Shown: positions 3,044 through 18,003 of the stretch, one piece after another | How the letters are laid out: each line of letters starts with the position of its first letter | Numbering within the stretch: the first letter of the stretch is position 1 | DNA from: a virus | Taxonomy: Duplodnaviria > Heunggongvirae > Uroviricota > Caudoviricetes | Virus record (IMG/VR): IMGVR_UViG_2718217897_000009 | Location: 1 to 18,768 of that record | Reading direction: 5' to 3' (one strand) | DNA length: 18,768 bases | Program-made: the position numbers and the translations under genes | The notes under the pieces: generated by a model | The model's input: only the letters and a program-made list of their open reading frames with translations | What the model was told of the DNA's origin: nothing | The model's database searches: none

Positions 3044-3371
3044 TCACGGCGTAAGCAGCACAGAGATCCGCCATAACCCGGTCGCCAGCTATCTGGAACA
3101 ACTGGGGGCATCAGACCCCGAAGCCGCCGCACGTCTGGCATCCACACTTCAGCAGGACCAGAACACCATGAAAACCCCCGTTACCGTGCTTTCTGACATG
3201 CTGCGCGCCATCCGTGACGCAGAGCACGCACAGAGAATCAGTGAAACCACTGAACGCGCCCACCGCAAAGCAGACCTGCTGCGGGGTAGCCTGACCAGTG
3301 GAAACAAAAAACAGACAGAAACGGGACTCACAAATCCCGTAAATGAGCAAAAAACGCGCCGCGATATATGA
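2973..3371 (+). CDS. Hypothetical ORF overlapping the 3' end of the Cox-position ORF in another frame; possible frameshifted continuation
   Basis: Frame 0 from about 3000 to 3371 shows coding-like codon usage (G-rich first position, ctg/gcc/cgt codons). Start is uncertain; the ATG at 2973 follows AGGGAG with too short a spacer. Confidence 0.2.
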   Translation: MQHLTPHTRPDSRITQLWQRLSRNHGVSSTEIRHNPVASYLEQLGASDPEAAARLASTLQQDQNTMKTPVTVLSDMLRAIRDAEHAQRISETTERAHRKADLLRGSLTSGNKKQTETGLTNPVNEQKTRRDI

Positions 3372-3447: not shown

Positions 3448-4407
3448 ATGAAAATTTGTATCGACGACGGCTCCACCAACATCAAGCTGGCATGGACTGA
3501 GAACGGCAAACGCCGCAACGCCATCAGCCCGAACAGCTTCAAGTCGGAATGGTCTGCGCCGTTCGGTGGCACGCAGCCCGCGAACTACATGCTTGATGGC
3601 GTGCGCTATGGTTTTGATCCGGTCAGCGATCGCTTTGTCCAGACGACCGACACGCAATACCAGTACAGCGATGTGAATGTAATTGCCATTCATCACGCGC
3701 TGGTCAAATCAGGCATCACACCACAGGAGGTGGATGTGGTTGTCACCCTGCCACTGAGCGAGTATTTCGATACAAACGCACAGCCGGACATGGCCAACAT
3801 CAACCGCAAAAAAGCGAACGTCATGCGCCCGGTGGAGTACCAGAACGGCGAAGCATTCACTATCCGTAACGTACGGGTTATGCCTGAATCCATTCCGGCT
3901 GGCTTTAAGGCACTGGCTGACATGAGTCCGTTTGAATCCCTGCTGATTGTGGATTTGGGCGGAACCACGCTGGATGTGGCAAAGGTTCAGGGGCAACTGG
4001 CAGGTATTAGCCAAGTGTTTTGCGATCCACACGTAGGCGTTTCTCTGATGGCCGATGCCGTACTGTCGGTGATGGCCACTAACGGTATGCGCACCAGTCA
4101 CCACATCGCCAATACCATTATCGAACATCGCCATGATGAAGCCTGGCTGCGCCAGCACATCCACAATGACGCGCATTACAACAGCCTGATGGCGGTTATT
4201 CGTGAAAAGGAAGAAACACTGAAACAACGCGTGATCCGCGCGCTGGCGGTTTTTTCGGGTTACGGGCGGGTGATGGTTGTCGGTGGCGGGGCGGAGATTG
4301 TGGCACCCGCTATCCGCGAAGCCTGCGGAGTTAATGCGACTTTCATCGCGGACGGGGTGCCACAGTTTGCTCTGGTTAATGGGCTGTACGCAATGAACAA
4401 GGAGTAA
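3448..4407 (+). CDS. parM: ParM/StbA-family actin-like segregation ATPase
   Basis: N-terminus MKICIDDGSTNIKLAW...ISPNSFKSEW and internal DLGGTTLD, VMPESIPAG and VVGGGAE motifs match plasmid R1 ParM/StbA as I remember it. Confidence 0.85.
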   Translation: MKICIDDGSTNIKLAWTENGKRRNAISPNSFKSEWSAPFGGTQPANYMLDGVRYGFDPVSDRFVQTTDTQYQYSDVNVIAIHHALVKSGITPQEVDVVVTLPLSEYFDTNAQPDMANINRKKANVMRPVEYQNGEAFTIRNVRVMPESIPAGFKALADMSPFESLLIVDLGGTTLDVAKVQGQLAGISQVFCDPHVGVSLMADAVLSVMATNGMRTSHHIANTIIEHRHDEAWLRQHIHNDAHYNSLMAVIREKEETLKQRVIRALAVFSGYGRVMVVGGGAEIVAPAIREACGVNATFIADGVPQFALVNGLYAMNKE

Positions 4408-4411
4408 ACCA

Positions 4412-4726
4412 ATGACGACACCAACCAGACGGATAAGTTTCTATCTGAAGCCCGCCGCCGTCAAGAGTGAACAGGAGGCGTGCAATTACCTCGATAGCCT
4501 GCCAGCCTCCGAACGCAGCCGCGCGCAACGCGCGGCCTTTCTGGCTGGGCTAGCACTCATAAAGCGCAACCCAGCATTTGCCTACTGGATGGCCGAATGG
4601 CCAGAGGACAACCTCCCCTTCAATACCGTTAGCATCAAGGAAACATACCAGGCTAATCAGCCTAGCGGAGTTGAATGCAATTTTTATAAAATAAAAAAGA
4701 ATATTCAGACCTTATTCCCAGAATAA
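4412..4726 (+). CDS. parR: ParR-family centromere-binding adaptor
   Basis: 104-aa protein RRISFYLKP...LDSLP.SERSRAQRAAFLAGLAL...LFPE resembles R1 ParR (RRTIAFKLNP...LDSIPQGERSRLNRAALTAGLAL...LFPKE); AAGGAG RBS; immediately downstream of parM. Confidence 0.75.
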   Translation: MTTPTRRISFYLKPAAVKSEQEACNYLDSLPASERSRAQRAAFLAGLALIKRNPAFAYWMAEWPEDNLPFNTVSIKETYQANQPSGVECNFYKIKKNIQTLFPE

Positions 4727-4773
4727 TCTGATAATTGTATGTGAACTAATAAAATACATACCAACACATCATT

Positions 4774-4798
4774 CTGGCACCCTTGCTAACAGGGTGCC
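4774..4798. terminator. Hairpin (8-bp stem TGGCACCC/GGGTGCCA, 9-nt loop) between convergent parR and the cargo gene
   Basis: Inverted repeat read directly; no strong T-tract on either strand, so terminator function is tentative. Confidence 0.3.
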
Positions 4799-4809
4799 AA
4801 TGTTTCAAA

Positions 4810-5652
4810 TCATGATGAAATTGCCGAAGTTTTTTTATCGTGCTGAAGTACCGCAAATGCCATTAAAACCTCAAGAGAATAGCGACGATAATACTTAACA
4901 AAACCATAATAAAATACTCGGGATGCAGCAATACAAAACAAGAGAAGAAAACAAAAAGGTAACAGCCTGATATTTATATCTATTAAAAAGGATAGAAGGA
5001 ACAGGAACATAAGCAACCAGACTGAAGCGAGAAAAACAAATGTAATGTTTCTACAAAAACCATACAAAGCAACATAGTTTTGCATTTTCACCTGATGATT
5101 TTTAGAATGTTCATACACATAATGATAAGCAAGGCGAAAAAGATCGCCCCTCAAGCCCTTACGTCGATATAGCGTAGATACAGAAAAAACATTTATATAA
5201 CCATCTCGTATTTGCGGCCAAAAGACTTTAATAAGTATAGAATGCAGTGTGGTTTTATGATGTTCTGCTTTATCAAAAGCTGATACAGGAAGTAAAAAAA
5301 CTCCACGGATAAAATTAACTATACTGAACTTAGTATTATGTCGTTTTATTTTCAGGGAGCTTCTTTTAGAAAACAGATAAATTGAAGGATACCCAAGTTT
5401 ACTGTTCATATATTTTTCAATTAAACAGGATGATAGAATAGATATGAAGTGACCTGAAATATATGATAGAACGATTAATACCACATATATAAATACAGTT
5501 ATTATTTCTTTATATTTCAGGATATGGTTAAGAATACCTTCTATATAAACAGGGTTAATTTCAATAGAAAACAAAAAAAGGATAAACAGGAATAACCCAC
5601 CTGGAATTAGATAGCCCAAAAAGTCATAAAATGAAAACGGATTCTGTGTCAC
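4810..5652 (-). CDS. Hypothetical multi-pass membrane protein (280 aa, GTG start), low-GC cargo
   Basis: Long ORF in a markedly AT-rich segment; hydrophobic stretches at about residues 13-30, 50-75, 205-230 and 238-256; no recognised catalytic motif. Confidence 0.6.
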   Translation of the reverse strand: MTQNPFSFYDFLGYLIPGGLFLFILFLFSIEINPVYIEGILNHILKYKEIITVFIYVVLIVLSYISGHFISILSSCLIEKYMNSKLGYPSIYLFSKRSSLKIKRHNTKFSIVNFIRGVFLLPVSAFDKAEHHKTTLHSILIKVFWPQIRDGYINVFSVSTLYRRKGLRGDLFRLAYHYVYEHSKNHQVKMQNYVALYGFCRNITFVFLASVWLLMFLFLLSFLIDINIRLLPFCFLLLFCIAASRVFYYGFVKYYRRYSLEVLMAFAVLQHDKKTSAISS

Positions 5653-5691
5653 ACTTCCCCCTGTGTTACTTGTAAATTAAAGGGTAAAACA

Positions 5692-6189
5692 TTATTTGTT
5701 TTTCCGTAAAGGATTAGCTTTCCATCTTCTTACTAACCATTCGAATTCTTGATATGTAGTATCCGAATTAATGCTTTCTCTGATTGCTTTAATTAATGGC
5801 TCGGCAATATCATATGTCTCTACAACTGTTGTGTAAGATGTTCTTTTTATCATTTTTTCATCATAAATACCTTCACGAATACTTACAGCAACTCGCTCGT
5901 AAAAATTTAAAATATATTGAAATTTTCGACGCTCGGCCATTTCTTCATCTGTTATTGTGCAACCATCACAAGGAAAAACATAAGAACGAAATGATTTGCC
6001 TGAACGATGCACTTGTTTCAGGGTATGCAATGACTCTATATATTGCATATCTTGCCGACTCTCAAAAAGAAAGTTGGCCGTTTGAGTTTTTTTTGCGGTA
6101 CGCACATTGTAGATAATGGTTCCAATGGCAACCAAAACGCCAAGCAGAACAATAGCATTGCTGATGATTTGTAGTGTTATTGGGTTCAT
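5692..6189 (-). CDS. Hypothetical protein with a single N-terminal TM helix (165 aa), low-GC cargo
   Basis: ORF with hydrophobic N-terminus (IISNAIVLLGVLVAIGTIIY) followed by a charged soluble domain; same strand as and 39 bp upstream of the 280-aa gene. Confidence 0.6.
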   Translation of the reverse strand: MNPITLQIISNAIVLLGVLVAIGTIIYNVRTAKKTQTANFLFESRQDMQYIESLHTLKQVHRSGKSFRSYVFPCDGCTITDEEMAERRKFQYILNFYERVAVSIREGIYDEKMIKRTSYTTVVETYDIAEPLIKAIRESINSDTTYQEFEWLVRRWKANPLRKNK

Positions 6190-6214
6190 CCTATTTCATC
6201 CATAAAAAAGGCGG

Positions 6215-6225
6215 GGAGCAAATCC
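6215..6225. repeat. IS186 target-site duplication, left copy (GGAGCAAATCC)
   Basis: Identical 11-bp sequence directly flanks both ends of the element. Confidence 0.75.
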
Positions 6226-7564
6226 CATAAGCGCTAACTTAAGGGTTGAACCATCTGAAGAATGCGACGCCTCGGTGCCTCGTTAAGACGATGCCTCGCG
6301 TTCTTCAATTGCGTTTTGTAGGCTGTCAGGGATACTGTCCCACGAATGGCCACCTGTAAGCTCCAGATGACCATTTTTGTTATTCTCCACAACGAGTTAG
6401 TTCTTCTTTTCGGATCCGGCACTTCTGGGGGGGAAATCCAGCGATGGCTGGATTATGTCGTCAATTAAAAATGCGGCGAGTAGATTAGCAAATATCCACG
6501 CTTTCGCGAGTTCAGGTTCCTTTGCACGCAAAGCATCCAGGTGCAGCAAACTTTTGAGCCGCTTAAAAGCCAGTTCAATTTGCCATCGCAGACGGTAACA
6601 ATCAGCCACTTGCTCTGCTGAATATTCATCTTCCGGTAATGATGTTAGCAATAGCACATGGCCCGCTGCTTCCAGCGTTTCCGCCTGAACTACTCGTCCT
6701 TTTCGACGATTCTCGCTGAGCAGTCGGGTTTTACTGATTAATGCTTTTTCGGGAGGAAGTGATACGGCAATGAGACGTGCCGGAAAGGGAGCTCCGGCTT
6801 TTTTATTACCTGAATTGCCTATCATTACAGTGGTTTCACCGTTCTTACCGCAATCCAGCCCGCGCAGAAAACCCATCATGTCAAAGCGCATTCCTTCTGC
6901 AGTTAACCAGCGCAATCCTCGCCAGTGAACCCGGACGATATAATCAGCTTCTCCAAAAGCAAGTGAGCGGATACATTCGGGACGCGAACCGAATCCCCGG
7001 TCAGCAATGCGTATCTCGTCTGCCGTTTGCGCAAATCGGTCCAGCCGTTCAGCGTCTCTGCTGTCGGTTAGCTCAAAATCAGTGAACTGACAGGTATGAG
7101 GATCATATCCCATATGTAGTCGCCATTCAGCGCTGCCGCCCCCGGGCGCACTGATTGCTGTTCCATCGACAAGACGCAATCTCTTTCCGCTTGTACAACC
7201 CGTAACTGCGGCGCGTACAGCAAGTGTTTGTGCGGCAAGTATGCCAAACCAGTCGGCGGCATTCCGCAGCCGCTTCAGGAGAGCCACGTCAGATAATGTT
7301 GCAACGTCATGGAGCTGAGCCCATGCAGTGACTTCACGTAATGACATCCCCCCGGGGCCGTAAGCCAGCCCCAGACGTAGCAGAGTTGCAGCATCACGAA
7401 TTTCGCGGCGGCGGGTTAGAGCCCCGGCATTACGTGCCGAAGTATCCAGTTCTTCGGGCTTACCAATATGGGCCAGAATTGCTGACCAGTTATCGTGAGA
7501 GTAATTCATCGGCACGTTAAATCATATCAGGCGTAATACCACAACCCTTAAGTTAGCGCTTATG
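6226..7564 (-). mobile_element. IS186 (IS4 family), 1339 bp, perfect 23-bp terminal inverted repeats CATAAGCGCTAACTTAAGGGTTG
   Basis: Terminal inverted repeats at 6226-6248 and 7542-7564 read directly; the internal ORF matches the IS186 transposase; flanked by an 11-bp direct repeat. Confidence 0.9.
6397..7509 (-). CDS. IS186 transposase (DDE, IS4 family), 370 aa
   Basis: Translation MNYSHDNWSAILAHIGKPEELDTSARNAGALTRRREIRDAATLLRLGLAYGPGG... matches IS186 transposase over its full length as I remember it; the ORF track starts two codons earlier (MPMNY). Confidence 0.9.
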   Translation of the reverse strand: MNYSHDNWSAILAHIGKPEELDTSARNAGALTRRREIRDAATLLRLGLAYGPGGMSLREVTAWAQLHDVATLSDVALLKRLRNAADWFGILAAQTLAVRAAVTGCTSGKRLRLVDGTAISAPGGGSAEWRLHMGYDPHTCQFTDFELTDSRDAERLDRFAQTADEIRIADRGFGSRPECIRSLAFGEADYIVRVHWRGLRWLTAEGMRFDMMGFLRGLDCGKNGETTVMIGNSGNKKAGAPFPARLIAVSLPPEKALISKTRLLSENRRKGRVVQAETLEAAGHVLLLTSLPEDEYSAEQVADCYRLRWQIELAFKRLKSLLHLDALRAKEPELAKAWIFANLLAAFLIDDIIQPSLDFPPRSAGSEKKN

Positions 7565-7575
7565 GGAGCAAATCC
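7565..7575. repeat. IS186 target-site duplication, right copy (GGAGCAAATCC)
   Basis: Identical to 6215-6225. Confidence 0.75.
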
Positions 7576-7736
7576 CCGCCTCATTAGAGGTCAACGTAGC
7601 TTAGAAACCATCAAATTCATCATGCATTTTTTTCATATCAACCCCCTCATAGAAATCATAACCACGTTTTGTGGTTTTTGTGATGCATAAACTACATCAA
7701 AGGCAAGCTACGGTCAAATATATGGGCATGCTTACC

Positions 7737-7766
7737 TGCACAAAAGTGCACAAATTTGCACAATTT
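7737..7766. repeat. Three direct repeats of TGCACAA phased exactly 10 bp apart
   Basis: TGCACAA at 7737-7743, 7747-7753 and 7757-7763, followed by a T7 run; helical-turn phasing suggests a protein-binding array. Confidence 0.5.
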
Positions 7767-8075
7767 TTTTGAACGACTTTTTACCCTTCCGGCCCGCGTG
7801 GCAGCTGGATCCGTCAGGGATCCGTGCATGCACAAAAAAACGCGTTTTTGTTGCGCGCAGGTGCCGGGGGAACAGCCCGCAATTTGGGGTCTGAAAGCAT
7901 CCTCAGAAATCGCCAGAAATGCTGCTGATTGTGCCCCTGACGCGATGTTTTATTGGTTGTGTGGTGAAGTATGGGCTGATGCATCACATGCCTGTGATGC
8001 ACTTTGATGCGACGTGTGCTGACAGGTTATTCAACCTGGTAGATCCCTGAGATGCCTGGTGCGTGACACACCGGA

Positions 8076-8099
8076 GCTGGTGAGTCGGGGCATAAATTT
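8076..8099. other. Near-perfect palindrome CGGGGCATAAA-TT-TTTATGCCCCG about 37 bp downstream of the portal stop
   Basis: Read directly; 11-bp arms; no adjacent T-tract on the minus strand. Confidence 0.4.
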
Positions 8100-8135
8100 T
8101 TATGCCCCGGAGAAGCAGCAGACAAGCGGAGCGCG

Positions 8136-9185
8136 TCAGGATATGGGCGGGGTATCCAGCAGTGCGTAAGGGTTAAAACGGATCACCTCTTCGCCCAGCC
8201 AGTCATTAACGTGCTTCATCGCCTCCATCACCGGCATCAGTTCGTTGATCGCAAACACTCTGGCCGCCTTCTCCACATCACCAAAAGAACCCTGCCCGCT
8301 GGGCATTGCGCCCATCAGTTGTGGTGGTACACGGTGAGCGGCCAGCACATCATCACGGGAGGCCGCCTTGACGTTCATGAACTCATCCCGGGCGGTGATC
8401 TGCTGGAATGGCAGGATTTGCACACCGTCCTTCCCGCCGTTCGGTGCCTGGAGTAGCAGGTTCTTGAATGCCCCACCGCCTCTTGCGCCCTGCAACGCTC
8501 TTTCGAGAGCCTGCATACTTTCGCGATCAACCTGTGCTGCCCCCACGTAAATGATGCAGCCTGCATGTGAACCGTTGTCATAGTAGAGTTTGCGGAAGCG
8601 ATCTGCCGAGTGCGACAGACTGGCAGACAACAGGCCACCGAGATATTCCGGCATTCCGTACATCTCCTGGTTGATGTCGGGGTTCAGCACATGGCAGACG
8701 CGCCCCTGACGGAACTCGTGGTCCTGCTCCCCCGTCTGCACAAACCAGTACACATCCGGCTCAACACCACGACGGACGTATTTTGCCAGCGCGTGCCGTA
8801 GTTCCAGTTTTCCGCCCAGCCTGTTGGTGCGCAGTTCAAGAAACGCATTCCCGAAGACAAACCAGTCCAGCGCAAAGGCGGAGAACGCCTGCCGGGAGAG
8901 CAGCCGGTGCGGAATGAAGCAGCCCAGTATGGCATTCCGCTTGAAGTACAGCGCCGACTGGTGCCACGAGGTCTGCCGGGATGCCCGCGCCAGTCCGTAC
9001 CAGTCAACGGGCGTTTCGTAGTATCTGCCGTTACTCAGGCAGTATGCGTTATCCAGCAGGTCGAGTGCGTGCGCATCGTAAGGGCCGTCGAACGAGAAGG
9101 CGCTTAACGACGGCTGGCGGCGCAGTGCCTCTGCCAGCGCCACGCCGTCATCGCGGCGCGAATATTTTCGTTTTTGTTTTTTCAT
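8136..9185 (-). CDS. Phage portal protein (P2 gpQ-like), 349 aa
   Basis: Size and position match P2 Q (344 aa); start ATG overlaps the stop of the upstream terminase ORF (ATGA), as expected for the P-Q arrangement. The family assignment is a recollection-level call. Confidence 0.7.
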   Translation of the reverse strand: MKKQKRKYSRRDDGVALAEALRRQPSLSAFSFDGPYDAHALDLLDNAYCLSNGRYYETPVDWYGLARASRQTSWHQSALYFKRNAILGCFIPHRLLSRQAFSAFALDWFVFGNAFLELRTNRLGGKLELRHALAKYVRRGVEPDVYWFVQTGEQDHEFRQGRVCHVLNPDINQEMYGMPEYLGGLLSASLSHSADRFRKLYYDNGSHAGCIIYVGAAQVDRESMQALERALQGARGGGAFKNLLLQAPNGGKDGVQILPFQQITARDEFMNVKAASRDDVLAAHRVPPQLMGAMPSGQGSFGDVEKAARVFAINELMPVMEAMKHVNDWLGEEVIRFNPYALLDTPPIS

Positions 9186-9751
9186 CAGAACTCAATCACC
9201 CGCATTCCTGTTGCACCGTCCTCATCGCCCAGCGGCTCGTTAATGACGGCAAGCATGGTTGCCCACGCGAGGTCGCCGTGGTTTACGCCGCGTGTGCGGT
9301 CTGTTTCATACGTTATTGCCCCGCCCGCCGTTTTTGCCTTGCGCACAGCGTTGAATGCCCTGACCAGCTCACGTTCGCCCCGGTCATACTCCCAGCGCCC
9401 CGCACGAATAATCTGCAGCATCTTCAGCACAAGCGCGCGTTTGGATGCCAGCGTGAACGTGTACGGCACGGCGGCAGGCCAGAACCGCCGCACTATCTGG
9501 TACACTGCCTCACCGTTACCGCCGGTCACGTCGATACCAATGTGCTGGACGTTGTATTTGTGCGTGAACTGCTCAATCACACGGGCCTGCTCTTCAAATT
9601 CCAGCCCCTGCACCTGCAACGTCTCCACCGTGCGGAATTTGCCGCCCCTGACGGCAGGCGGTACAACAACAGACAGCGCCCCGCTGACGTAGCAGGAAAC
9701 AGGGGGATTTGCCCCTGTTTTTTTGTTCAGAATGCAGCCTTCACCATTCAT
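9185..9751 (-). pseudogene. 5'-truncated terminase large subunit (C-terminal nuclease domain only; ATPase domain missing)
   Basis: 188-aa ORF with terminase-nuclease-like features (IGIDVTGG ... VNHGDLAWATMLAV near the C-terminus) but no ATPase domain. P2 gpP is about 590 aa. The first ~18 codons overlap a hairpin/T-run and a tail-gene remnant, so the annotated start is probably spurious. Confidence 0.55.
9696..9723 (+). terminator. Rho-independent terminator-like hairpin (AAACAGGGG/CCCCTGTTT stem, T7 run)
   Basis: Inverted repeat followed by TTTTTTT on the plus strand. Confidence 0.45.
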
Positions 9752-9850
9752 CTCTAATCGTATTCAGTAATTCGCCCGCAGAAACAAACTAAAATTCATC
9801 CCCCGCATCACGCCACTGAAAGCAGACGGTAAACTCCAGATTTTCAAACC
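9726..9850 (-). pseudogene. Diverged remnant of the 3' end of a gpU-like tail gene
   Basis: About 70% nucleotide similarity to the 3' end of the intact U gene at 10508-10640, including the shared TTCAGAATGCAGCC and CTGAAAGC blocks; the minus-strand translation (..EFTVCFQWRDAGDEF*FVSAGELLN..) parallels the U C-terminus (..EFSISFQRCDEDMRERFQSASAGELLN..) but contains a stop. Confidence 0.4.
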
Positions 9851-10171
9851 AGCGTCAGAAGTATTTAAATGGCACCAGATGTAATATGCAGGCGATTAAT
9901 ATGGTGTGCTTAAAGATCATAAAAGCGGGCAACATTAAAACTCCGGGCTGTGTAAATTACCGCCACTCATAATCAGAGATGAAAACAGAATTAAACTGGC
10001 GGAGTGGATTGTATACATAAAATAAGTTCAGTTGTTGACTTTCACTTCCGTGAATTGATGAAGGTTATTACAATACATCGGTATGATCTCTCCTCCTTAA
10101 AAGGGAGGACTTTTCAGAACGCAGAAATTATTTATAATCCCGTAGTGTTCTATACATGCAAACATTCTTTT

Positions 10172-10195
10172 CCCGCCCCGTGCGGGCTTTTTTTT
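10172..10195 (+). terminator. Terminator-like hairpin (CCCGC/GCGGG stem, T8 run)
   Basis: Read directly; preceded about 35 bp upstream by a perfect TATAAT (10133-10138). Confidence 0.4.
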
Positions 10196-10285
10196 GCCGC
10201 AAAGATACAGTAACAAACAAAATTGTAATCATGGCAATCAAAACACGAGAAACATTTTCAGCAATTGCAATAACAAATTAAAATA

Positions 10286-10315
10286 TTGCAATTGACAATC
10301 CCCGCTTAATATAAT
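10286..10315 (+). promoter_or_regulatory. Sigma70-like promoter (-35 TTGCAA, 18-bp spacer, -10 TATAAT)
   Basis: Hexamers read directly; a terminator lies about 45 bp downstream, giving a predicted transcript of about 60 nt. Confidence 0.35.
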
Positions 10316-10359
10316 CCCTTCCGGAACATAGAACATTAAATCTTCACACAATGCATGTT

Positions 10360-10383
10360 GCCCTCTTTATGAGGGCTTTTTTT
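10360..10383 (+). terminator. Rho-independent terminator (GCCCTC/GAGGGC stem, T7 run)
   Basis: Perfect 6-bp GC-rich stem, 5-nt loop, TTTTTTT. Confidence 0.5.
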
Positions 10384-10401
10384 ATTTCCAGAATATCACC
10401 A

Positions 10402-10430
10402 TTGCCATCATCGGGCGATTTATATATAGT
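10402..10430 (+). promoter_or_regulatory. Sigma70-like promoter (-35 TTGCCA, 17-bp spacer, -10 TATAGT)
   Basis: Hexamers read directly; a terminator lies about 45 bp downstream. Confidence 0.3.
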
Positions 10431-10476
10431 CAGAATGTATTGACAACATTTTGCTTCTTTTCCATGAAGGCCATAA

Positions 10477-10506
10477 GGGAGTGCTTTTTACACTCCCTCT
10501 TTTTTT
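10477..10506 (+). terminator. Rho-independent terminator (GGGAGTG/CACTCCC stem, T7 run) abutting the U stop codon on the opposite strand
   Basis: Perfect 7-bp stem, 7-nt loop, T-run; oriented to stop plus-strand transcription before it runs antisense into the tail operon. Confidence 0.5.
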
Positions 10507-10508
10507 AT

Positions 10509-10967
10509 TCAGAATGCAGCCACAGGCATTTTGTCTTTAAGCGCGTTCAGCAGTTCGCCCGCAGAAGCAGACTGAAACCGCTCTCTCATATCCTCATCAC
10601 ACCGCTGAAAGCTGATGGAAAACTCAATCTTTTTTGCCTTTCCGTAACGATCCAGCTCGGAGCGGGTGGTCTGTAATCCTGTAATCACGTACATTCCGTA
10701 AATCTGCCCCGTGCCATCAATCAGCGGCCAGGGACATCCGGTGTAGGCCTGGGTGTTCAGCAGTGTCAGTGACACCTCACCACCGGTAATTTCCGGGTAC
10801 AACAGACCGGACAGCGTGATCTGATCGTCACCTGCGCCAATATACTGCCAGGCCGCAGAGCGGTTAATGCGCTCATTTTTCACATGTCGCCATGTTTTGC
10901 TCTGCTGGATCTGCTGATGCGGAAGCGTTTTCAGCTCAAACACAAACATGCCAAAAATCATCATCAT
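10509..10967 (-). CDS. Tail protein gpU-like (152 aa)
   Basis: Triple-Met start (MMMIFGMFVFELK...) preceded by AAGGAGA; size and position (immediately after the tape-measure gene) match P2 U. Confidence 0.8.
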   Translation of the reverse strand: MMMIFGMFVFELKTLPHQQIQQSKTWRHVKNERINRSAAWQYIGAGDDQITLSGLLYPEITGGEVSLTLLNTQAYTGCPWPLIDGTGQIYGMYVITGLQTTRSELDRYGKAKKIEFSISFQRCDEDMRERFQSASAGELLNALKDKMPVAAF

Positions 10968-10980
10968 AATTGCGTCTCCT

Positions 10981-13900
10981 TTAGTCCCTGTCGCGGAAGC
11001 TGTTCATGCCTGTACGCGCCTGTCTGCGCATCTCTTCGCGGACGGCCTCACCAACCAGTTTTGCCAGTTCGCGCGGATTCTGTGTGTTGACGTTGTGCAG
11101 ATGTACATGTATCTCACCGGAAAACGCAGCAGCCTGTGGTTGTGGCGTAGCTTCCCTTCTGGCCGCTTCCGGTCGCAACGGGGGCCGGATAGCCTCCGCG
11201 ACGGGAGCGGAAGCCATCACCGCCCCCGTCATACCTTCAGCCACGTTACGCGGCTGCGGCAGTGCGGAGACCTGGCGGGCCACGTTCACAACGGGAGCGG
11301 GGGCACTCACCGCAGGGGTGGGCAGTACACCTGTCAGTCTCTGCCAGAGCATTGTCAGTGCATCCGTCAGCCCTACGCCCGCCGATACCGCCTGCACCGT
11401 CCGGACAACCTGCGGTGCTTTCCACTCGCCGTGAATGATTTCGGGTCCGGGCAGATTTTTGAAAACAATATCGCCGGGACCGACGCGCCTGCGTGTTTCC
11501 TCAAGAAGCCCGCCTGTATTGCTGGCGGTTTTCTGTATCCCCTGCCGGAACCATGCCTCATCCAGCGGGGATTTGCTGCCGGGTTTGCCGACCGGATTGT
11601 CCGCCGTTCCCCTCACCTCTCCGGGAACAGCAGGGGCAGGTTTATTGTCACCGTTGTTTTCCGCTGCATCTGATGACCACGACCATGTTTTCTGCACCAT
11701 TTTTTTCTGTGCAGGATCCCACTCCCACGCAACCGGCGCTTTTTGTGTGGACTGTTTTGCGGCGCTCTCCTGGAGTTTTTGCGTCTCCTTCTGTGCCTCT
11801 TTGATGCCGTCCGGGATGACACCCAGCCACTTCAGCACGGTACCGAGGCCATCAAGGAGCAGCGTCATCGGCCCCAGCACAATGTTCTGAATGACCCACC
11901 CCAGCGTTTTCCCGAACGACTCCCCTGCACTGGTGCATTTGTCGAGCGTCTCTTTTGAGGCGTTTGCAGGTTCAAGCAGGCGGGTGAACCACTCCCACAC
12001 GGCTTTGATGCCGTCACCAATCAGCCCGAACACCGGAGCCAGCGATGCAAAGGCTTCCCGCAGCGGTTGCAGCGCCTCCCACACTCCGGCAAAAAAGCCG
12101 GAAAAAAACGCGCTGATCGGATCCCAGTATTTCCACACCAGAACCGCGCCGCCCACCAGGGCGGCAACAATCAGCCCGACCGGACTGAACAGCGCCCCCA
12201 GTGCGCCACCCAGAACCGACACCGCCCCCGTGACCAGCCCCCACAGCGCAGGCAGCCCCGTCAGGCGCAGTGCCATCGCAGACACAAGCCGGACAGCACC
12301 ACCAATGCCACCGCCCCCCGTCAGCAGCCCCAGTCCCAGTTGCAGTTTTGCCAGCGGCCCCGCAATCAGCCCGAGCGTCAGTGACAGCGCACCGAACGTG
12401 GAAGACAGCGCCAGAACACTCCCGCCGGTCAGCACCAGGACTCTGACCAGCGCCTGATGCTCTCCGGCCCATTCGCGCATCCGGGTCACCCACGCGCTCA
12501 CCGTCTGAACCAGCCCGCGCAAATCCTCGGTCACAGTACCGAAGATGTCCGTGCGTAGCCCTGAGAACGCACCACTCAGCGCCTGAATATCGCCGGAAAG
12601 ATTACCGCGCAGCGTCTGCCCCATGCGGTCTGCCACGCCGCTGACATCACCCAGGTTGTCACGGACATCGGCCAGCGCCTTTAAGAACTGCGGGATCTGG
12701 TCAACGGAGAGGTCTTCAACGGGTGTGCCGAACAGCGCAATGGCCGTGTTCGCCCGCTCTGCCGGGTCACGGATGGCCAGCAGTGCACGGGCGGTCACCT
12801 GCATCGCCTGACGAGCGGTGCTGCCTCCCTGTGCAATGGCAGCAGACACCCGCTCAGCATTCAGGCCGAGAGTCTCATACGCTGAGACACTGGATTTCGA
12901 CATATCCGAACCCCGGATGCTGAACTCCTTCACGGCATCGCCGGTTTTGTCCAGCGCAAACTTGCCCTGCTTTGCCATCTCAACCAGCAGACTCATTGTC
13001 TCGCTGCCGGTGAAGCCCATGTTGCGGAAGTGGGTGGAATACTCGTGCAGAATTTCCGGCAGTTCATCGCGCATTTCAGCGGACATACGCTGCATCCCTG
13101 CCGTCATCAGGTTAGTAGCCTCGTCACTGCTGGCAGCCAGCCCGTTCTTCATCATGATGGCAGCGGCCTGAATGCTCTGCGGCACATCAACACCAAAGAC
13201 GGTCCGCATATCCAGCGCACGACGGCTGATGCGCTCCAGTTCCCGGTCGCCGGTGTCGCCCAGTGCACCGAGCGTACTGCGTACCGCACTCACAGCCTCC
13301 GCAGCACCGGCAAAATCAGCGAGACCGTCAGCCTGTATGTTACGAATAATGTGGGTGTAACGTGCGCCATCCTGTGCGCCTTCCCCCGAACCGGCTGCGA
13401 TGACCGCACCGTGCTGTTCGGACTCCATCGCCGGAGCCATCATACGCTGCGCCGCATACAGGCCGCCTGTACCCGCCGCCATCGCCACAGCCCCTGTGTT
13501 GCGCAGTTTTTCCGCCTGTGCCTTCGCGGCCTCATAGCGGCTCTGTGCCTGCGTCACGCGAGCCAGAGCCTGCCGTTCACGCTCGAGCTGCTCGTTGTAC
13601 TGCTGTGTACGGCGAACGGCACTTTCAATGGTGCGGCTGCTGCCGGAAAGCAGAATGCCGTGTTTGCGCATTTCCCCTGCCGCCGCCTGAAGTTTTTCGC
13701 GTTCGCGCGTGCGCAGCTCGTTCAGGCGCTCAAGCCGCGCGGAGAGTGCCGCCAGCGTTTCACGCTGCTTTTCGGAGAGGATGTTACCGTTCTGCTCTGC
13801 CTTTCGCAGCCCGGCGAGCCTCTGCTCCGCGCGGGCAATCTGTTCGCGGTATTTACTGAGATTTCCGGCGGCACGTTCGAACACCTTCGACTGCCTGTCG

Positions 13901-14067
13901 AGCGTCTGTATGTTGTCCTGCGTCTTCTGAAGGGATTCAGTGAGAGCGCCCACCTGACGGCGGGCGTTTTCGGTCGGGCGTGTCAGCCGGTCAATTGCGC
14001 CAAAGCTGACACGAATATCAAGGGATTTCACTGTTGCGGACTCCGCTACGTTGCGCCGCCCGCTCAC
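10981..14067 (-). CDS. Tail tape measure protein (gpT-like), 1028 aa, GTG start
   Basis: Very long ORF with an N-terminal coiled-coil-like region, a central Gly/Ala/Leu-rich hydrophobic segment and a position between E/E' and U; typical of tape measure proteins. Confidence 0.9.
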   Translation of the reverse strand: MSGRRNVAESATVKSLDIRVSFGAIDRLTRPTENARRQVGALTESLQKTQDNIQTLDRQSKVFERAAGNLSKYREQIARAEQRLAGLRKAEQNGNILSEKQRETLAALSARLERLNELRTREREKLQAAAGEMRKHGILLSGSSRTIESAVRRTQQYNEQLERERQALARVTQAQSRYEAAKAQAEKLRNTGAVAMAAGTGGLYAAQRMMAPAMESEQHGAVIAAGSGEGAQDGARYTHIIRNIQADGLADFAGAAEAVSAVRSTLGALGDTGDRELERISRRALDMRTVFGVDVPQSIQAAAIMMKNGLAASSDEATNLMTAGMQRMSAEMRDELPEILHEYSTHFRNMGFTGSETMSLLVEMAKQGKFALDKTGDAVKEFSIRGSDMSKSSVSAYETLGLNAERVSAAIAQGGSTARQAMQVTARALLAIRDPAERANTAIALFGTPVEDLSVDQIPQFLKALADVRDNLGDVSGVADRMGQTLRGNLSGDIQALSGAFSGLRTDIFGTVTEDLRGLVQTVSAWVTRMREWAGEHQALVRVLVLTGGSVLALSSTFGALSLTLGLIAGPLAKLQLGLGLLTGGGGIGGAVRLVSAMALRLTGLPALWGLVTGAVSVLGGALGALFSPVGLIVAALVGGAVLVWKYWDPISAFFSGFFAGVWEALQPLREAFASLAPVFGLIGDGIKAVWEWFTRLLEPANASKETLDKCTSAGESFGKTLGWVIQNIVLGPMTLLLDGLGTVLKWLGVIPDGIKEAQKETQKLQESAAKQSTQKAPVAWEWDPAQKKMVQKTWSWSSDAAENNGDNKPAPAVPGEVRGTADNPVGKPGSKSPLDEAWFRQGIQKTASNTGGLLEETRRRVGPGDIVFKNLPGPEIIHGEWKAPQVVRTVQAVSAGVGLTDALTMLWQRLTGVLPTPAVSAPAPVVNVARQVSALPQPRNVAEGMTGAVMASAPVAEAIRPPLRPEAARREATPQPQAAAFSGEIHVHLHNVNTQNPRELAKLVGEAVREEMRRQARTGMNSFRDRD

Positions 14068-14598
14068 GCCAGCTCATCACCTCGACGAGAGGCATTGAGA
14101 ATATCCCGCCGGGCGACCAGTTAAACACGACTGCTATATCGGCGACCAGTTCTTCAACGTTGTCGAACTTCGCCAGCGTGATTACGCTTCCATCACCGCC
14201 ACGGACGGTTTCGCAGACTCCGTGGGAGCCAAAAAATTCGCCACCAGAGTTGCCAGCGCCACGAAATCACCGGTGGACAGTGACTGAATTTCTGCCAGCT
14301 TCAGGCGTGGTGCGGTCACGCGCGAAAGCAGCGTCATCATCGGGTCCGTTTTGAGGTTCAGCACCTCAATCAGAGACAGCCCGCGCAACGAGCCTGCCTG
14401 GCGGATTTCCTCGCCAATCTCCACATAGTCAATAACGCGTTCGCCACGCACCACCGGGCAGGATAACTGCACACCCGTTTTTTCCTCTGCGGCTTCTGCG
14501 TTATCCACGGTGTTTTCCTCTGCCACATCGATGTTTTCAGTGGTGGTGTCACCTGCGACGATTTCGCTGTTCATGATGTCATCTTTCTTTGCTGCCAT
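14018..14598 (-). CDS. gpE+E' fusion produced by programmed -1 frameshift at T TTT TTG (14230-14236); extension ends at TGA 14018-14020, overlapping the tape-measure start
   Basis: The -1 frame after the slippery site is open for about 70 codons (FFGSHGVCETVRGGDGSVITLAKFDNVEELVADIAVVFNWSPGGIFSMPLVEVMSWRERAAQRSGVRNSEIP) and terminates inside the start of T, the geometry known for P2 E/E'. Confidence 0.55.
14182..14598 (-). CDS. Tail assembly chaperone gpE-like (zero-frame product, 138 aa)
   Basis: ORF between the tube and tape-measure genes with a GGAG RBS; contains the conserved slippery heptamer near its 3' end. Confidence 0.75.
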   Translation of the reverse strand: MAAKKDDIMNSEIVAGDTTTENIDVAEENTVDNAEAAEEKTGVQLSCPVVRGERVIDYVEIGEEIRQAGSLRGLSLIEVLNLKTDPMMTLLSRVTAPRLKLAEIQSLSTGDFVALATLVANFLAPTESAKPSVAVMEA

Positions 14599-14613
14599 TT
14601 TTCTTTCTCCTGT

Positions 14614-14632
14614 GGCGGCACAATGTGCCGCC
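14614..14632. other. Perfect 19-bp palindrome GGCGGCACA-A-TGTGCCGCC in the FII-E intergenic region
   Basis: Read directly; no T-tract; possible mRNA stem-loop modulating expression between tube and chaperone genes. Confidence 0.4.
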
Positions 14633-14644
14633 CTGTTAATGCTG

Positions 14645-15160
14645 TCAGTTCAGACCGAGCGCCGAACTCACGCGGTCACCAAAGACGTTCTGGCCGTCTT
14701 TTTTGTAGATGAAGTTCAGCAGGTCGATTTCTGTCACATCGCTGTCATCCACCGACTCCTTGTAGTAGGTGTTTTTGACGGCGAAGGTGTACTGTGTGGT
14801 GTCGCCCTGTTTGGTTTCGCCACGGTCGATTTCCGTGATGCGTCCGCGCATCTCCACCTCAAGGATCTGACTTTCCTCACCATCGGTGAACAGCTCACCC
14901 ACAAAGCGCAGCGCCACTTCGTTAATGTCAGTGGCGTATTCCTGGAGCAACTCTTTTTCAACACCGCCGGTGGTGAATGAGGCATCCAGTGCGCCGTCAT
15001 CCAGTCCGAGGTCAATATACACCGCACCCAGCATCCCGCCACCGCGATAGGCTTCGGTTTTTCGGGTCAGTTTAGGCAGAGTGACGCCTGTCACCGTGCC
15101 GATTTTGTTTTTGCCGTTCACAAACAGCGTGAACTGGCGAACGTAACGTGGTACAGCCAT
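14645..15160 (-). CDS. Tail tube protein gpFII-like (171 aa)
   Basis: Translation MAVPRYVRQFTLFVNGKNKIGTVTGVTLPKLTRKTEAYRGGGM...VDLGLDD resembles P2 FII; GGGAGGTG RBS; start abuts the FI stop. Confidence 0.9.
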   Translation of the reverse strand: MAVPRYVRQFTLFVNGKNKIGTVTGVTLPKLTRKTEAYRGGGMLGAVYIDLGLDDGALDASFTTGGVEKELLQEYATDINEVALRFVGELFTDGEESQILEVEMRGRITEIDRGETKQGDTTQYTFAVKNTYYKESVDDSDVTEIDLLNFIYKKDGQNVFGDRVSSALGLN

Positions 15161-16342
15161 TTACGCACCTCCCAGCGTTGCAAAAGCGGAGTCGAAATAC
15201 TCATCCGTGAAGGTCTGGTACAGCGTCAGGTCTTCCATCGGCGGCACTGATGTGTACTTGTAGCGGATACGCACGCGCCCCTGACGTAAATCCGTCGTGC
15301 CGTTGTCCAGCACGTCATACCAGCACTCCGCACCGATAAGTTTTCCGGCGGTGACCAGGGCATTGAGTTTTGCGCGGATGGCGCTAATCACGTCCTTCAC
15401 GTTCGCCGGGGTCAGCGGTTCGTCAATGGTTTCGAACTGCGCCTCAGCGATGGTATCTGCCAGAATCTGCGCTGTGCGCGTGTACACCTCAAAGATGTAG
15501 TCGCTGGTTTCGGCAGTACGGTTCCCCCAGAAGCGGAAGCCGTTACGGCGAATAATCGTGGTGATTTCCTTGTTGTTCAGGTTGTTCGCATCACTGTCTT
15601 CAGCCTGCAACGACCAGAACACCTGCTGCGACATACCGAGCACATTTTTCAGCGCCACGTTGGACAGTGACTTGTGCCAGCCCTGCTCACTGTCAATCCG
15701 CGCACGCAACCCGCACGCATACGCCGCAGCCGGAAATGTTTCGTTATTTCCGCTCACCGGGTTGTAGGCAATGAAGTCAGGCCACAGCAGCATCAGCTCA
15801 CGCGCGGAGAACTTAGCGCGGTAAGTGATTGCCTCCGCCATCGTGCCACAGCCGTTACATCCGGCGTACACAAAGGCGCGGAGCTTGTCCGCAATGACGC
15901 ACAGGGCAGATGTGACAGCTTCGGTATCAAGGCCGGGAGCCGCCAGAATACGCGGGCGGTAACCAATGCTCTCGTCCTGTTCGGCAACCAGCAGCGCATA
16001 CATACCCGTATAGCTGCCGTCAGCCTGCGAACCACCGATGACAAGCTGGTCCTGTGTCTCACCTTCCTCTCCGGCTTCTGCCACACGCACCACGATAACC
16101 TTCGGGCTGGTCTGGTCGGAAATCGCCTTGAGCGTTTTGTACAGCGTGCCTGTTGTGCCTGCCTTACCCAGCACATTCGCCACGCGGGTGATCAATACGG
16201 GCCTGTTTAACGGGAACGCGTCGCTGTCTGCATCGTCCGCCGTGGCCACGATACCGATGACACTGGAATCAATGTCATTAATCGCGGTCACGAGGTCGGT
16301 GTTTTCTTTGACGCGTGCGCCGTGAAAGCGTGTTTCACTCAT
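15161..16342 (-). CDS. Contractile tail sheath protein gpFI-like (393 aa)
   Basis: Translation MSETRFHGARV...PLNRPVLIT...KLRAFVYA...ELMLLWPDF...QGWHKSLSNV...IRRNGFRFWGNRT...YTRTAQ resembles P2 FI; start chosen at the internal ATG preceded by AGGAGG. Confidence 0.9.
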   Translation of the reverse strand: MSETRFHGARVKENTDLVTAINDIDSSVIGIVATADDADSDAFPLNRPVLITRVANVLGKAGTTGTLYKTLKAISDQTSPKVIVVRVAEAGEEGETQDQLVIGGSQADGSYTGMYALLVAEQDESIGYRPRILAAPGLDTEAVTSALCVIADKLRAFVYAGCNGCGTMAEAITYRAKFSARELMLLWPDFIAYNPVSGNNETFPAAAYACGLRARIDSEQGWHKSLSNVALKNVLGMSQQVFWSLQAEDSDANNLNNKEITTIIRRNGFRFWGNRTAETSDYIFEVYTRTAQILADTIAEAQFETIDEPLTPANVKDVISAIRAKLNALVTAGKLIGAECWYDVLDNGTTDLRQGRVRIRYKYTSVPPMEDLTLYQTFTDEYFDSAFATLGGA

Positions 16343-16505
16343 GAGCACCTCCTGGTGTTTTTTCTGTGGCACTATCCTCCCGAAAAACACCCCGACACTC
16401 ACGCGCCGCCCCTTCTCGCCGCTCTCCTACAACATGCGCGGCTCGCGGTGTATTTCGCGTGTGTGGAATGATTTGCAGGACGAAGACACTGACGGAGAAA
16501 GCGGG

Positions 16506-17639: not shown

Positions 17640-17689
17640 CCGGAATAAAATCACGACGATTCACCTTCACGAAAAAGGAGGTCTTCGTC

Positions 17690-17947: not shown

Positions 17948-18003
17948 GCACATGCCTGTTTTTGTTTTTGTTTCTGTATTATTTTGATTCTGGAGTTTTA
18001 TTT

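What the first reader, a model, noticed from the sequence alone, without database searches (positions are those of the whole stretch)
9185..10640. Terminase reduced to its nuclease domain and fused to a diverged duplicate of the U gene 3' end
The ORF upstream of the portal gene keeps only a C-terminal nuclease-like domain. Its 5' end runs directly into a roughly 125-bp segment (9726-9850) that is about 70% identical to the 3' end of the intact U gene 700 bp away, including a shared hairpin/T-run/TTCAGAATGCAGCC junction. The divergence argues against a recent duplication and for recombination between two related P2-like elements or an old inversion/deletion.
Basis: seen in the sequence. Interest (0 to 1): 0.5.

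Follow-up and report, generated by a model that had tools for sequence, protein, structure and literature searches.

The report
Deletion scar in a decaying prophage
This is an ordinary dead-virus remnant in an E. coli chromosome: a 14-kb deletion cut the virus's DNA-packaging gene in half and parked the stump next to an older, already-present leftover of a tail gene.

Summary
Window 9726-9844 is a decayed copy (71% identity; local score 49 against 8.3±1.4 for shuffles) of the last ~41 codons of the intact gpU gene at 10509-10967. The 188-aa ORF 9185-9751(-) carries only terminase C-terminal sequence.

The "fusion" is two unrelated events.

1. Recent deletion. An almost intact sibling prophage sits at the same glsA-copA site in E. 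coli strain 2-1. Against it, the window lacks 14,270 bp. The deletion runs from terminase codon 414/415 to the last sense codon of a 94-aa gene downstream of the tail fibre gene, and was joined at a 2-bp TG microhomology (window 9685-9686). The terminase stump (residues 415-580 of 580) lacks both N-terminal domains and the first strand of the nuclease fold (VWIGYDAN). RefSeq already annotates it as a pseudogene.

2. Old scar. The U' relic also occurs, 95-100% identical, in relatives with intact terminase and tail fibre genes (66 complete E. coli genomes carry the relic). It abuts relics of a tail-fibre 3' end and of a tail-fibre-assembly gene. It is best read as the scar of an ancient illegitimate recombination between two P88-like (Xuanwuvirus) phages during tail-fibre module exchange.

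Verdict: non-functional and ordinary. Low interest.

The parts
8136..9185 (-). Intact portal gene (P2 Q-like), 349 aa
   Evidence: Pfam Phage_portal, E=2e-16. RefSeq WP_032201605.1 is the same protein in the intact sibling prophage.
9185..9685 (-). Large terminase remnant: codons 415-580 plus stop of a 580-aa gpP-type terminase. A pseudogene.
   Evidence: 165/166 identical to L002 terminase residues 415-580. Only Terminase_6C, profile positions 18-154 of 155. RefSeq: 'incomplete; missing N-terminus'.
9686..9751 (-). Fortuitous 22-codon 5' extension of the ORF (MNGEGCILNKKTGANPPVSCYV). It is read out of frame through the end of the U' relic, terminator T1 and the orf94 stop codon.
   Evidence: ORF list. 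BLASTP similarity to terminase starts at ORF residue 23. Frame comparison.
9685..9687 (+). Deletion junction. TGA is the stop codon of the deleted 94-aa gene. Its TG (9685-9686) is the 2-bp microhomology shared with the terminase side.
   Evidence: blastn of window against L005: window 7732-9686 = L005 11883-13837 and window 9685-18768 = L005 28108-37185. Parental sequences compared.
9692..9726 (.). Terminator T1: A-run, GC hairpin, T-run. Bidirectional in form. In intact relatives it lies between the convergent orf94 and the U' relic.
   Evidence: Terminator scan, hairpin 9702-9716. RNA fold -17.9 kcal/mol, z = -4.2. Present in L003 directly after orf94. Not shared with phage 21 downstream of its orf94 homologue.
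9726..9844 (-). U' relic: decayed copy of the last ~41 codons plus stop of a gpU-type tail gene
   Evidence: 71% identity to 10508-10633, score far above shuffles. In-frame stop and frameshift. 95-100% identical copies in 66 E. coli genomes, never annotated.
9842..9946 (+). Relic of the tail fibre gene H 3' end (stop TAA at 9897-9899) and the first ~15 codons of the tail-fibre-assembly gene G (ATG at 9901)
   Evidence: About 80% identity to the P2 H/G junction and the SfMu tail fibre/assembly junction. Alignment and translation: QKYLNGT.. against P2 QKYINGT.., and LKIIKAGNIKT against P2 LKNIKAGNAKT.
9972..10124 (+). Relic of the 3' end of tail-fibre-assembly gene G, with an internal deletion and an in-frame stop
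   Evidence: tblastn with the strain 135 G protein, residues 138-164. DNA 71.5% identical to L006. Aligns to L006 5482-5634, inside the intact G gene.
10125..10475 (+). Conserved AT-rich G-U intergenic region with promoter-like and terminator-like units. It is context rather than part of the scar.
   Evidence: 87-89% identical across four lineages, including strain 135, which lacks the relic. 71 genomes carry it. 35% GC for 10125-10508.
10476..10507 (.). Terminator T5 next to the stop codon of the intact U gene
   Evidence: Terminator scan. Fold z = -2.9. Compensatory G:C to C:G change in L006.
10509..10967 (-). Intact gpU tail gene, 152 aa
   Evidence: Pfam Phage_P2_GpU, E=7e-40. 100% identical in L005. 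dN/dS well below 1 between lineages.

Best explanation
The region records two separate events in a P88-like (Xuanwuvirus, P2-related) prophage integrated between glsA and copA.

Event 1, old. In an ancestor of a whole prophage lineage, two related phage genomes recombined illegitimately. One parent had the layout 'tail fibre - small membrane gene - bidirectional terminator - convergent U'. The other had 'tail fibre H - assembly gene G - intergenic region - terminator - convergent U'. Parent 1 was joined, about 120 bp inside the 3' end of its U gene, to parent 2 about 55 bp before the stop of its H gene. The product gained a new tail fibre module. It kept the useless leftovers U' (9726-9844), H' 3'/G' 5' (9842-9946) and G' 3' (9972-10124), which have since decayed at roughly the neutral rate.

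Event 2, recent, seen in four strains. A 14,270-bp deletion, measured against the sibling prophage of strain 2-1, joined terminase codon 414/415 to the stop codon of the small membrane gene at a 2-bp TG microhomology. It removed two thirds of the terminase, all capsid, lysis, baseplate and tail fibre genes, and the membrane gene.

The 188-aa ORF is a by-product. It consists of 166 terminase codons plus 22 out-of-frame codons read through a terminator and the U' relic. It lacks the gpP N-terminal domain, the ATPase domain and the first strand of the nuclease fold, so it should be inactive. With its other lesions the prophage is cryptic.

Shown: both breakpoints of the deletion, the pre-existence of the relic, and the decay of the relics. 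Inferred: the layout of the two parents in event 1, and the lack of function.
For: Deletion:
- Megablast matches split at window 9685-9689.
- Strain 2-1 carries the near-intact sibling prophage at the same locus.
- Window 7732-9686 equals L005 11883-13837, and window 9685-18768 equals L005 28108-37185, at 99.4-99.5% identity. This gives a 14,270-bp gap with a 2-nt overlap.
- The parental sequences at the junction show only TG in common.
- The right breakpoint is the TGA stop of orf94.
- The identical junction occurs in 8 complete-genome records from 4 strains.

Terminase stump:
- Residues 415-580 of 580 are retained.
- The intact protein has Terminase_5, Terminase_6N and Terminase_6C (residues 402-563). 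The stump matches only profile positions 18-154 of Terminase_6C.
- VWIGYDAN lies just upstream of the break.
- RefSeq annotates it as a pseudogene.

The relic predates the deletion:
- It is 100% identical in strain 2-1, and 98.7-100% identical over the relic block in L003. Both have intact terminase and tail fibre regions.
- 66 genomes carry it.

Scar structure:
- The U' relic abuts the H 3'/G 5' relic and the G 3' relic.
- Strain 135 has a plain H-G-intergenic-U layout and no relic, which matches the layout proposed for parent 2.
- L007 has a different tail fibre module and a different U' allele, but the same collinear U'|H'|G' structure.

Neutral decay:
- The relics carry stops and frameshifts.
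- Their divergence from functional counterparts (about 29% for both U' and G' 3') is comparable to dS of 0.14-0.30 between U alleles.

Layout: the convergent orientation of U towards the tail fibre region is normal for P88.
Against: - No parent-1-type phage was found, that is, an intact U directly convergent on orf94 with a 3' end close to the relic. It was absent from 5,426 E. coli genomes, the phage collection, 43 loci from other species and the metagenome scan. A within-genome duplication of the U 3' end followed by decay therefore cannot be excluded.
- The region is mosaic. The relic is 98.7-100% identical between the window and L003, while U is only 93% identical. This blurs any dating.
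- The L007 G' relic is 94% identical to the strain 135 G gene, much less decayed than the window's. This needs either later gene conversion or an independent history.
- Lack of expression or function of the 188-aa ORF was not tested experimentally.
- The strain 2-1 reference carries an IS3 insertion in its tail fibre gene. The true deleted length in the direct ancestor may therefore be about 1.2-1.3 kb shorter.
Confidence: 0.85

Rival explanations
1. A single rearrangement, such as recombination between two P2-like elements or an inversion/deletion, both truncated the terminase and created the U-like duplicate.
For: The two features are adjacent: the break is at 9686 and the relic starts at 9726. 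The relic is diverged, as expected if a second element was involved.
Against: The relic, T1 and the relic/H' junction are present and 98.7-100% identical over the relic block in prophages with complete terminase and tail fibre genes. The terminase break maps to a simple collinear 14,270-bp deletion with no inverted segment.
Confidence: 0.03
2. The U' relic arose by duplication of the U 3' end plus terminator within one genome, for example by slipped or unequal recombination. It then decayed, with no second phage involved.
For: U' and U have the same orientation and share the stop-codon/T-run junction at 25/27 positions. No donor phage was found. 29% divergence is compatible with long neutral decay.
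Against: The hairpin stems of T1 and T5 are not alike. The relic sits exactly between a foreign tail fibre module, whose orf94 homologues are in lambdoid phages, and the stump of the previous H/G genes. That is the signature of module replacement. The L007 relic ends in a different U C-terminus (..KDKSSSLNAFP*), resembling the long-tailed U alleles of other genera rather than its own U.
Confidence: 0.2
3. The 188-aa ORF is a domesticated stand-alone nuclease kept by the host.
For: An open frame of 188 codons with a strong Terminase_6C match (E=4e-30). The neighbouring portal gene is intact.
Against: It lacks the first beta-strand carrying Asp-405. Its first 22 codons are out-of-frame read-through of a terminator hairpin and a pseudogene. 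The junction occurs in only 4 strains and the retained sequence is 99% identical to an intact sibling, so the event is too recent for selection to be visible. RefSeq annotates it as a pseudogene. No NCBIfam family of this shape matches.
Confidence: 0.02
4. The U' relic is retained because it is useful. It could serve as a homology arm that lets tail fibre modules be swapped with any phage having a convergent U. Alternatively, when transcribed from the tail fibre operon, it could act as an antisense RNA against the U mRNA 3' end.
For: The relic is 95-100% conserved in 66 genomes. Two lineages with different tail fibre modules share the same U'|H' architecture. Perfect matches of 13-14 nt to U exist.
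Against: High conservation among the 66 genomes probably reflects recent common ancestry. Between the two old lineages the relics are only 65-69% identical, which is neutral-level. No gradient of similarity along the relic was seen that would indicate crossovers inside it. T1 lies between the tail fibre operon and the relic and should stop transcription.
Confidence: 0.07
5. The junction is an assembly artefact.
For: None specific.
Against: The junction is identical in 8 complete-genome records from 4 independently sequenced strains: E100341, AST19, AST205 and the EC0026B derivatives.
Confidence: 0.01

Closest known systems
Escherichia phage P88 and relatives (Xuanwuvirus, Peduoviridae; P2-like coliphages, PMC5285337)
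   Same: P2-type gene set. The sheath-tube-E-tape measure-U block lies on the opposite strand to the baseplate and tail fibre genes, so U converges on the tail fibre region, with D and ogr beyond it. U protein is 77% identical.
   Different: P88 has an invertible alternative tail fibre segment and a DNA invertase between G and U. This lineage has a 384-bp AT-rich non-coding region there instead (10125-10508), unrelated to the P88 sequence, plus the relics. The window copy has lost about 20 kb in two deletions and is defective.
Cryptic or defective prophages decaying by internal deletion, such as the P2-type remnant with ogrK and a gpD fragment in E. coli K-12 (own knowledge)
   Same: Microhomology-bounded internal deletions (TG here; ATACCCG at the second deletion), an IS insertion, internal stop codons, and truncated morphogenesis genes annotated as pseudogenes.
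   Different: Nothing of substance. This copy is at an earlier stage of decay, and an almost intact sibling at the same site allows exact reconstruction.
Mosaic tail fibre modules exchanged among P2, Mu, P1 and lambdoid phages (own knowledge: Haggard-Ljungquist et al. 1992 on P2 H/G)
   Same: The H 3'/G 5' relic is about 80% identical to the P2 and SfMu tail fibre/assembly junctions. The replacement module carries a small membrane gene also found after the side tail fibre genes of phage 21 and lambda-like phages.
   Different: Here the illegitimate end of the exchange is preserved as a visible scar. It includes about 120 bp of the donor's convergent U gene, which such exchanges do not usually leave behind.
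gpP-type large terminase (Pfam Terminase_5 + Terminase_6N + Terminase_6C)
   Same: The stump is 99% identical to the C-terminal 166 residues of such a protein.
   Different: It lacks the gpP N-terminal domain, the ATPase domain and the first strand of the nuclease domain. It is a fragment and not a member in any functional sense.

Membership tests
gpP-type large terminase subunit | N-terminal gpP-like domain (Pfam Terminase_5) | tested here: not met
   Present at residues 7-63 of the intact sibling protein and absent from the 188-aa ORF.
gpP-type large terminase subunit | Packaging ATPase domain (Pfam Terminase_6N) | tested here: not met
   Residues 147-371 of the intact protein. No match in the ORF, which starts at residue 415.
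gpP-type large terminase subunit | Complete RNase H-like nuclease domain (Terminase_6C), including the first beta-strand with its acidic residue | tested here: not met
   The intact protein matches profile positions 1-154 at residues 402-563. The ORF matches only positions 18-154. The lost residues include VWIGYDAN (D405). That this Asp is catalytic is inferred by analogy with other terminase nucleases. No solved homologue was detectable by sequence.
gpU tail protein (Pfam Phage_P2_GpU) | Full-length open reading frame covering the GpU domain (residues 6-125 of the 152-aa protein) | tested here: not met
   This row concerns the relic at 9726-9844. It covers only about the last 41 codons and has an in-frame stop and a frameshift. 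The neighbouring gene at 10509-10967 meets the criterion.
P88-like (Xuanwuvirus) P2-related prophage | P2-type structural gene set, with the FI-to-U block inverted and convergent on the tail fibre genes, followed by D and ogr | tested here: met
   Annotation of the window's source record and of the intact sibling. Same layout in P88. U is 77% identical at the protein level. Formal genus membership by genome-wide identity was not computed.
Intrinsic (Rho-independent) bidirectional terminator (T1, 9692-9726) | GC-rich hairpin flanked by an A-run upstream and a T-run downstream | tested here: met
   Pattern scan and fold of -17.9 kcal/mol with z = -4.2. Termination activity cannot be tested with these tools.
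Microhomology-mediated (illegitimate) deletion | Collinear loss of an internal segment relative to an intact relative, with only a few shared bases at the junction and no IS element or site-specific recombination site | tested here: met
   14,270-bp gap with a 2-nt overlap (TG). Flanks are collinear at 99.4-99.5% identity. IS421 lies more than 2 kb away, beyond the portal gene.

The most novel reading that the evidence does not exclude
The most novel reading still open concerns the terminase stump's surroundings. Two possibilities remain. First, the U' relic may act as a portable homology arm that makes tail fibre modules exchangeable among phages with a convergent U gene. Second, the adjacent conserved AT-rich region (10125-10508) may encode three tandem promoter/short-transcript/terminator units, that is, undescribed small RNAs of P88-like prophages, occupying the place where P88 carries its tail fibre invertase.
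Probability: 0.1. Interest if true: 0.4.

Novelty: already known. Interest (0 to 1): 0.1.

Why it matters
It matters little beyond correct annotation. The terminase fragment should stay a pseudogene; some RefSeq records call it 'oxidoreductase'. The 188-aa ORF should not be called a gene, and the prophage should be scored as defective. The case has modest value as a cleanly reconstructed example of prophage decay, with both breakpoints and the microhomology known from a sibling at the same site. It also preserves a rare scar from the illegitimate end of a tail fibre module exchange.

Tried and rejected
- Rfam scan of 9100-11100 at E≤1: only one chance-level hit, SpF51 at E=0.32.
- PDB sequence search with the intact terminase, to place the catalytic residues: no hit.
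- Extra U-end copies: the TTCAGAAYGCAG motifs at 10113 and 10387 first looked like further U 3' relics. The 10113 copy lies inside sequence homologous to the coding 3' end of gene G in strain 135, and neither is significant against shuffles (38/500 and 1/500 shuffles reach the score).
- Orientation of the H/G relic: I first took it to be on the minus strand, as a remnant of an invertible segment. The P2 record is stored reverse-complemented, and the relic is on the + strand.
- Search for a donor phage with an intact U matching the relic: none found in E. coli complete genomes, the phage collection, 43 U-encoding loci of other species or the metagenome scan.
- Link between the intergenic region and the P88 invertase/invertible segment: no similarity at DNA or protein level.
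- Phage collection search with the intergenic region alone: no match.
- NCBIfam on the ORF, orf94 and the two cargo ORFs: nothing.
- Small ORFs in 9760-10505: none convincing.
Full report
**What the window is.** The window is 100% identical over the 2.9-kb query (8100-11000) to E. coli chromosomes such as NZ_CM128606. In the NZ_CM128606 annotation it lies between glsA and copA. The gene order there is:
- integrase, an HTH repressor-like gene, and a truncated replication endonuclease;
- ParM and ParR-like genes;
- a 280-aa ORF, a DUF4760 gene and IS421;
- portal(-) and a terminase pseudogene(-);
- about 820 bp without annotation;
- U(-), tape measure(-), E(-), tube(-), sheath(-, internal stop);
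- D(+), ogr(+), and a DNA methyltransferase (internal stop).

This is a P2-related prophage. Its closest named relatives are P88-type phages (Xuanwuvirus), with U 77% identical at the protein level. P88 shows the same orientation of the sheath-to-U block, convergent on the tail fibre region. That orientation therefore needs no special explanation here. P88 is described as a P2-like coliphage in PMC5285337.

**Checking the observation.**
- ORF 9185-9751(-) exists and is 188 aa.
- The segment 9726-9844 aligns with the 3' end of U (10508-10633) at 89/126 identical columns. The local score is 49, against 8.3±1.4 (maximum 14) for shuffles. Apart from self-overlapping chunks, the U 3' end is the best match in the window on either strand.
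- The T-run plus TTCAGAATGCAGCC is shared at 25/27 positions.
- Both copies are preceded on the + strand by a hairpin plus T-run, but the stems differ in sequence.
- On the minus strand the relic reads as a broken C-terminus of gpU, with one in-frame stop and one frameshift.

**The terminase stump.** An intact 580-aa terminase in E. coli strain 2-1 has three Pfam domains: Terminase_5 (residues 7-63), Terminase_6N (147-371) and Terminase_6C (402-563). The 188-aa ORF matches only Terminase_6C, profile positions 18-154 of 155. BLASTP puts ORF residues 23-188 on residues 415-580 at 165/166 identity. The intact sequence reads ...NRPVWIGYDANGSSGNGD|SGALSVVV... at the break. The first strand of the RNase H-like fold, with Asp-405, is therefore lost. 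That this Asp is catalytic is an inference from other terminase nucleases, since a PDB sequence search found nothing to anchor it. The first 22 codons of the ORF come from reading, out of frame, through the end of the U' relic, a strong hairpin and the stop codon of another gene. RefSeq annotates 9185-9685 as an incomplete pseudogene. In the EC0026B records it carries the misleading name 'oxidoreductase'.

**The deletion.** Megablast matches to other genomes split at window 9685-9689. The left part matches portal plus terminase, and the right part matches 'hypothetical protein' plus U. Strain 2-1 carries an almost complete sibling prophage at the same glsA-copA site. A direct comparison gives:
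- window 7732-9686 = L005 11883-13837 (99.4% identity);
- window 9685-18768 = L005 28108-37185 (99.5% identity).

This is a collinear loss of 14,270 bp with a 2-nt overlap. The parental sequences share only TG at the junction. The right breakpoint is the TGA stop codon of a 94-aa membrane-protein gene, orf94, which follows the tail fibre gene. The deletion removed terminase codons 1-414, the scaffold, capsid, small terminase, head completion, lysis, baseplate and tail fibre genes, and orf94. The strain 2-1 copy contains an IS3 in its tail fibre gene, so the direct ancestor may have lost about 1.2-1.3 kb less. The same junction is found in 8 complete-genome records from 4 strains, which rules out an assembly artefact.

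**The U' relic is older than the deletion.** The relic with its terminator (9690-9856) is 100% identical in strain 2-1 and 95-100% identical in 66 complete E. coli genomes, always unannotated. In prophages with intact terminase and tail fibre genes it sits directly after orf94 (L003, L005). The deletion merely brought the terminase stump next to it.

**What the relic is.** Immediately to its right, on the + strand, lie two further relics.
- 9842-9946 is about 80% identical to the junction between tail fibre gene H and assembly gene G of P2 and SfMu. It contains the H stop at 9897-9899, the G start at 9901, and recognisable codons (QKYLNGT; LKIIKAGNIKT).
- 9972-10124 matches the 3' end of gene G of strain 135 (tblastn residues 138-164; DNA 71.5% identical), with an in-frame stop.

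Strain 135 (L006) has the plain layout H - G - 380-bp intergenic region - convergent U, with no relic. The window lineage therefore looks like this layout after most of H was replaced by a foreign block. That block runs 'tail fibre - orf94 - terminator T1 - last ~120 bp of a convergent U gene'. It leaves the last ~55 bp of the old H, plus a G gene that then lost its middle.

orf94 homologues follow the side tail fibre genes of phage 21 and lambda-like phages. T1 is not shared with phage 21, so T1 and U' came from a P2-like context.

A third lineage, SWHEFF_58 (L007), has a different tail fibre module consisting of the fibre plus two small genes, as in phage 21. It has a different terminator and a U' relic with a different C-terminus (..KDKSSSLNAFP*) that is also frameshifted. 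It nevertheless shows the same collinear U'|H'|G' arrangement, aligning with the window over 9743-10198 at 69%. The scar is therefore old.

Divergence of U' from U (29%) and of G' 3' from an intact G (28%) is of the same order as synonymous divergence between U alleles of these lineages (dS 0.14-0.30). This fits neutral decay.

**What remains uncertain.**
- No phage with the proposed donor layout was found. I give an intragenomic duplication of the U end about 0.2.
- The region is mosaic. Between the window and L003, the relic is 98.7-100% identical but U only 93%. The L007 G' relic is 94% identical to the strain 135 G gene. Dates and the exact order of events cannot be fixed.

**Function.** I found nothing that argues for function of the stump or the relic. 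The prophage also has the following lesions:
- a second internal deletion of about 5.5 kb, bounded by ATACCCG;
- an IS421 insertion;
- internal stops in the sheath and methyltransferase genes.

It is a cryptic prophage.

**Comparison with the known, and verdict.** Every element is a known kind of thing: a defective P2/P88-like prophage, a microhomology-mediated deletion, a terminase pseudogene already flagged by RefSeq, and a recombination scar from tail fibre mosaicism. The ORF is a terminase remnant, and the relic is old and probably recombinational. However, the two features do not come from one event, the nuclease domain is incomplete, and no inversion is involved. Interest is low.

Noticed in passing
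window 10125-10508: AT-rich (35% GC) intergenic region between the tail-fibre-assembly gene relic and U. It is 86-100% conserved in 71 E. coli genomes and never annotated. It holds three + strand promoter-like sites (10111-10138, 10286-10315, 10402-10430), each followed 35-70 nt later by a hairpin plus T-run (10172-10194, 10360-10383, 10476-10507). The last stem shows a compensatory G:C to C:G change in strain 135. There is no Rfam match, no convincing ORF and no similarity to the P88 invertase region. These could be undescribed small RNAs.
   Followed up: partly
window ~2988-2998: A second internal deletion relative to the strain 2-1 sibling prophage. About 5.5 kb are missing (L005 915-6436), from the early genes into the replication endonuclease gene. 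The junction is bounded by a 7-bp ATACCCG microhomology.
   Followed up: partly
window 4467-7731: The cargo region upstream of the portal gene differs between siblings. Strain 2-1 carries an IetA/IetS anti-phage system (PADLOC E=4e-89 and 6e-41). The window instead has a 280-aa ORF (4810-5652, weak Csx27-like hit, E=1e-5), a DUF4760 gene (5692-6189) and IS421 (6397-7515). This looks like a variable accessory or defence hotspot.
   Followed up: partly
window 15161-16402 and ~18000-18768: In RefSeq the tail sheath gene and the DNA methyltransferase gene after ogr each carry an internal stop. This is further evidence that the prophage is decaying.
   Followed up: no
L058 (NZ_OX460336, EC0026B derivative) 3069-3301: In the EC0026B records the ogr gene begins about 200 bp beyond U. 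That implies a further deletion removing the tape measure-to-D block in that strain. The same records name the terminase remnant 'oxidoreductase', which is a misnomer.
   Followed up: no
window 3448-4726: ParM (StbA_N/ParM) and a Plasmid_stab_B partner gene lie inside a P2-like prophage. Both are also present in the intact sibling. They suggest a plasmid-like partition module in this phage lineage.
   Followed up: no
L003 5719-6003; L007 4590-5174; L059 1210-1794: Small membrane-protein genes (92-97 aa) travel with tail fibre modules in both P88-like prophages and lambdoid phages (phage 21 and lambda-like isolates, about 90% aa identity). Their function is unknown. They have no Pfam or NCBIfam match.
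   Followed up: partly
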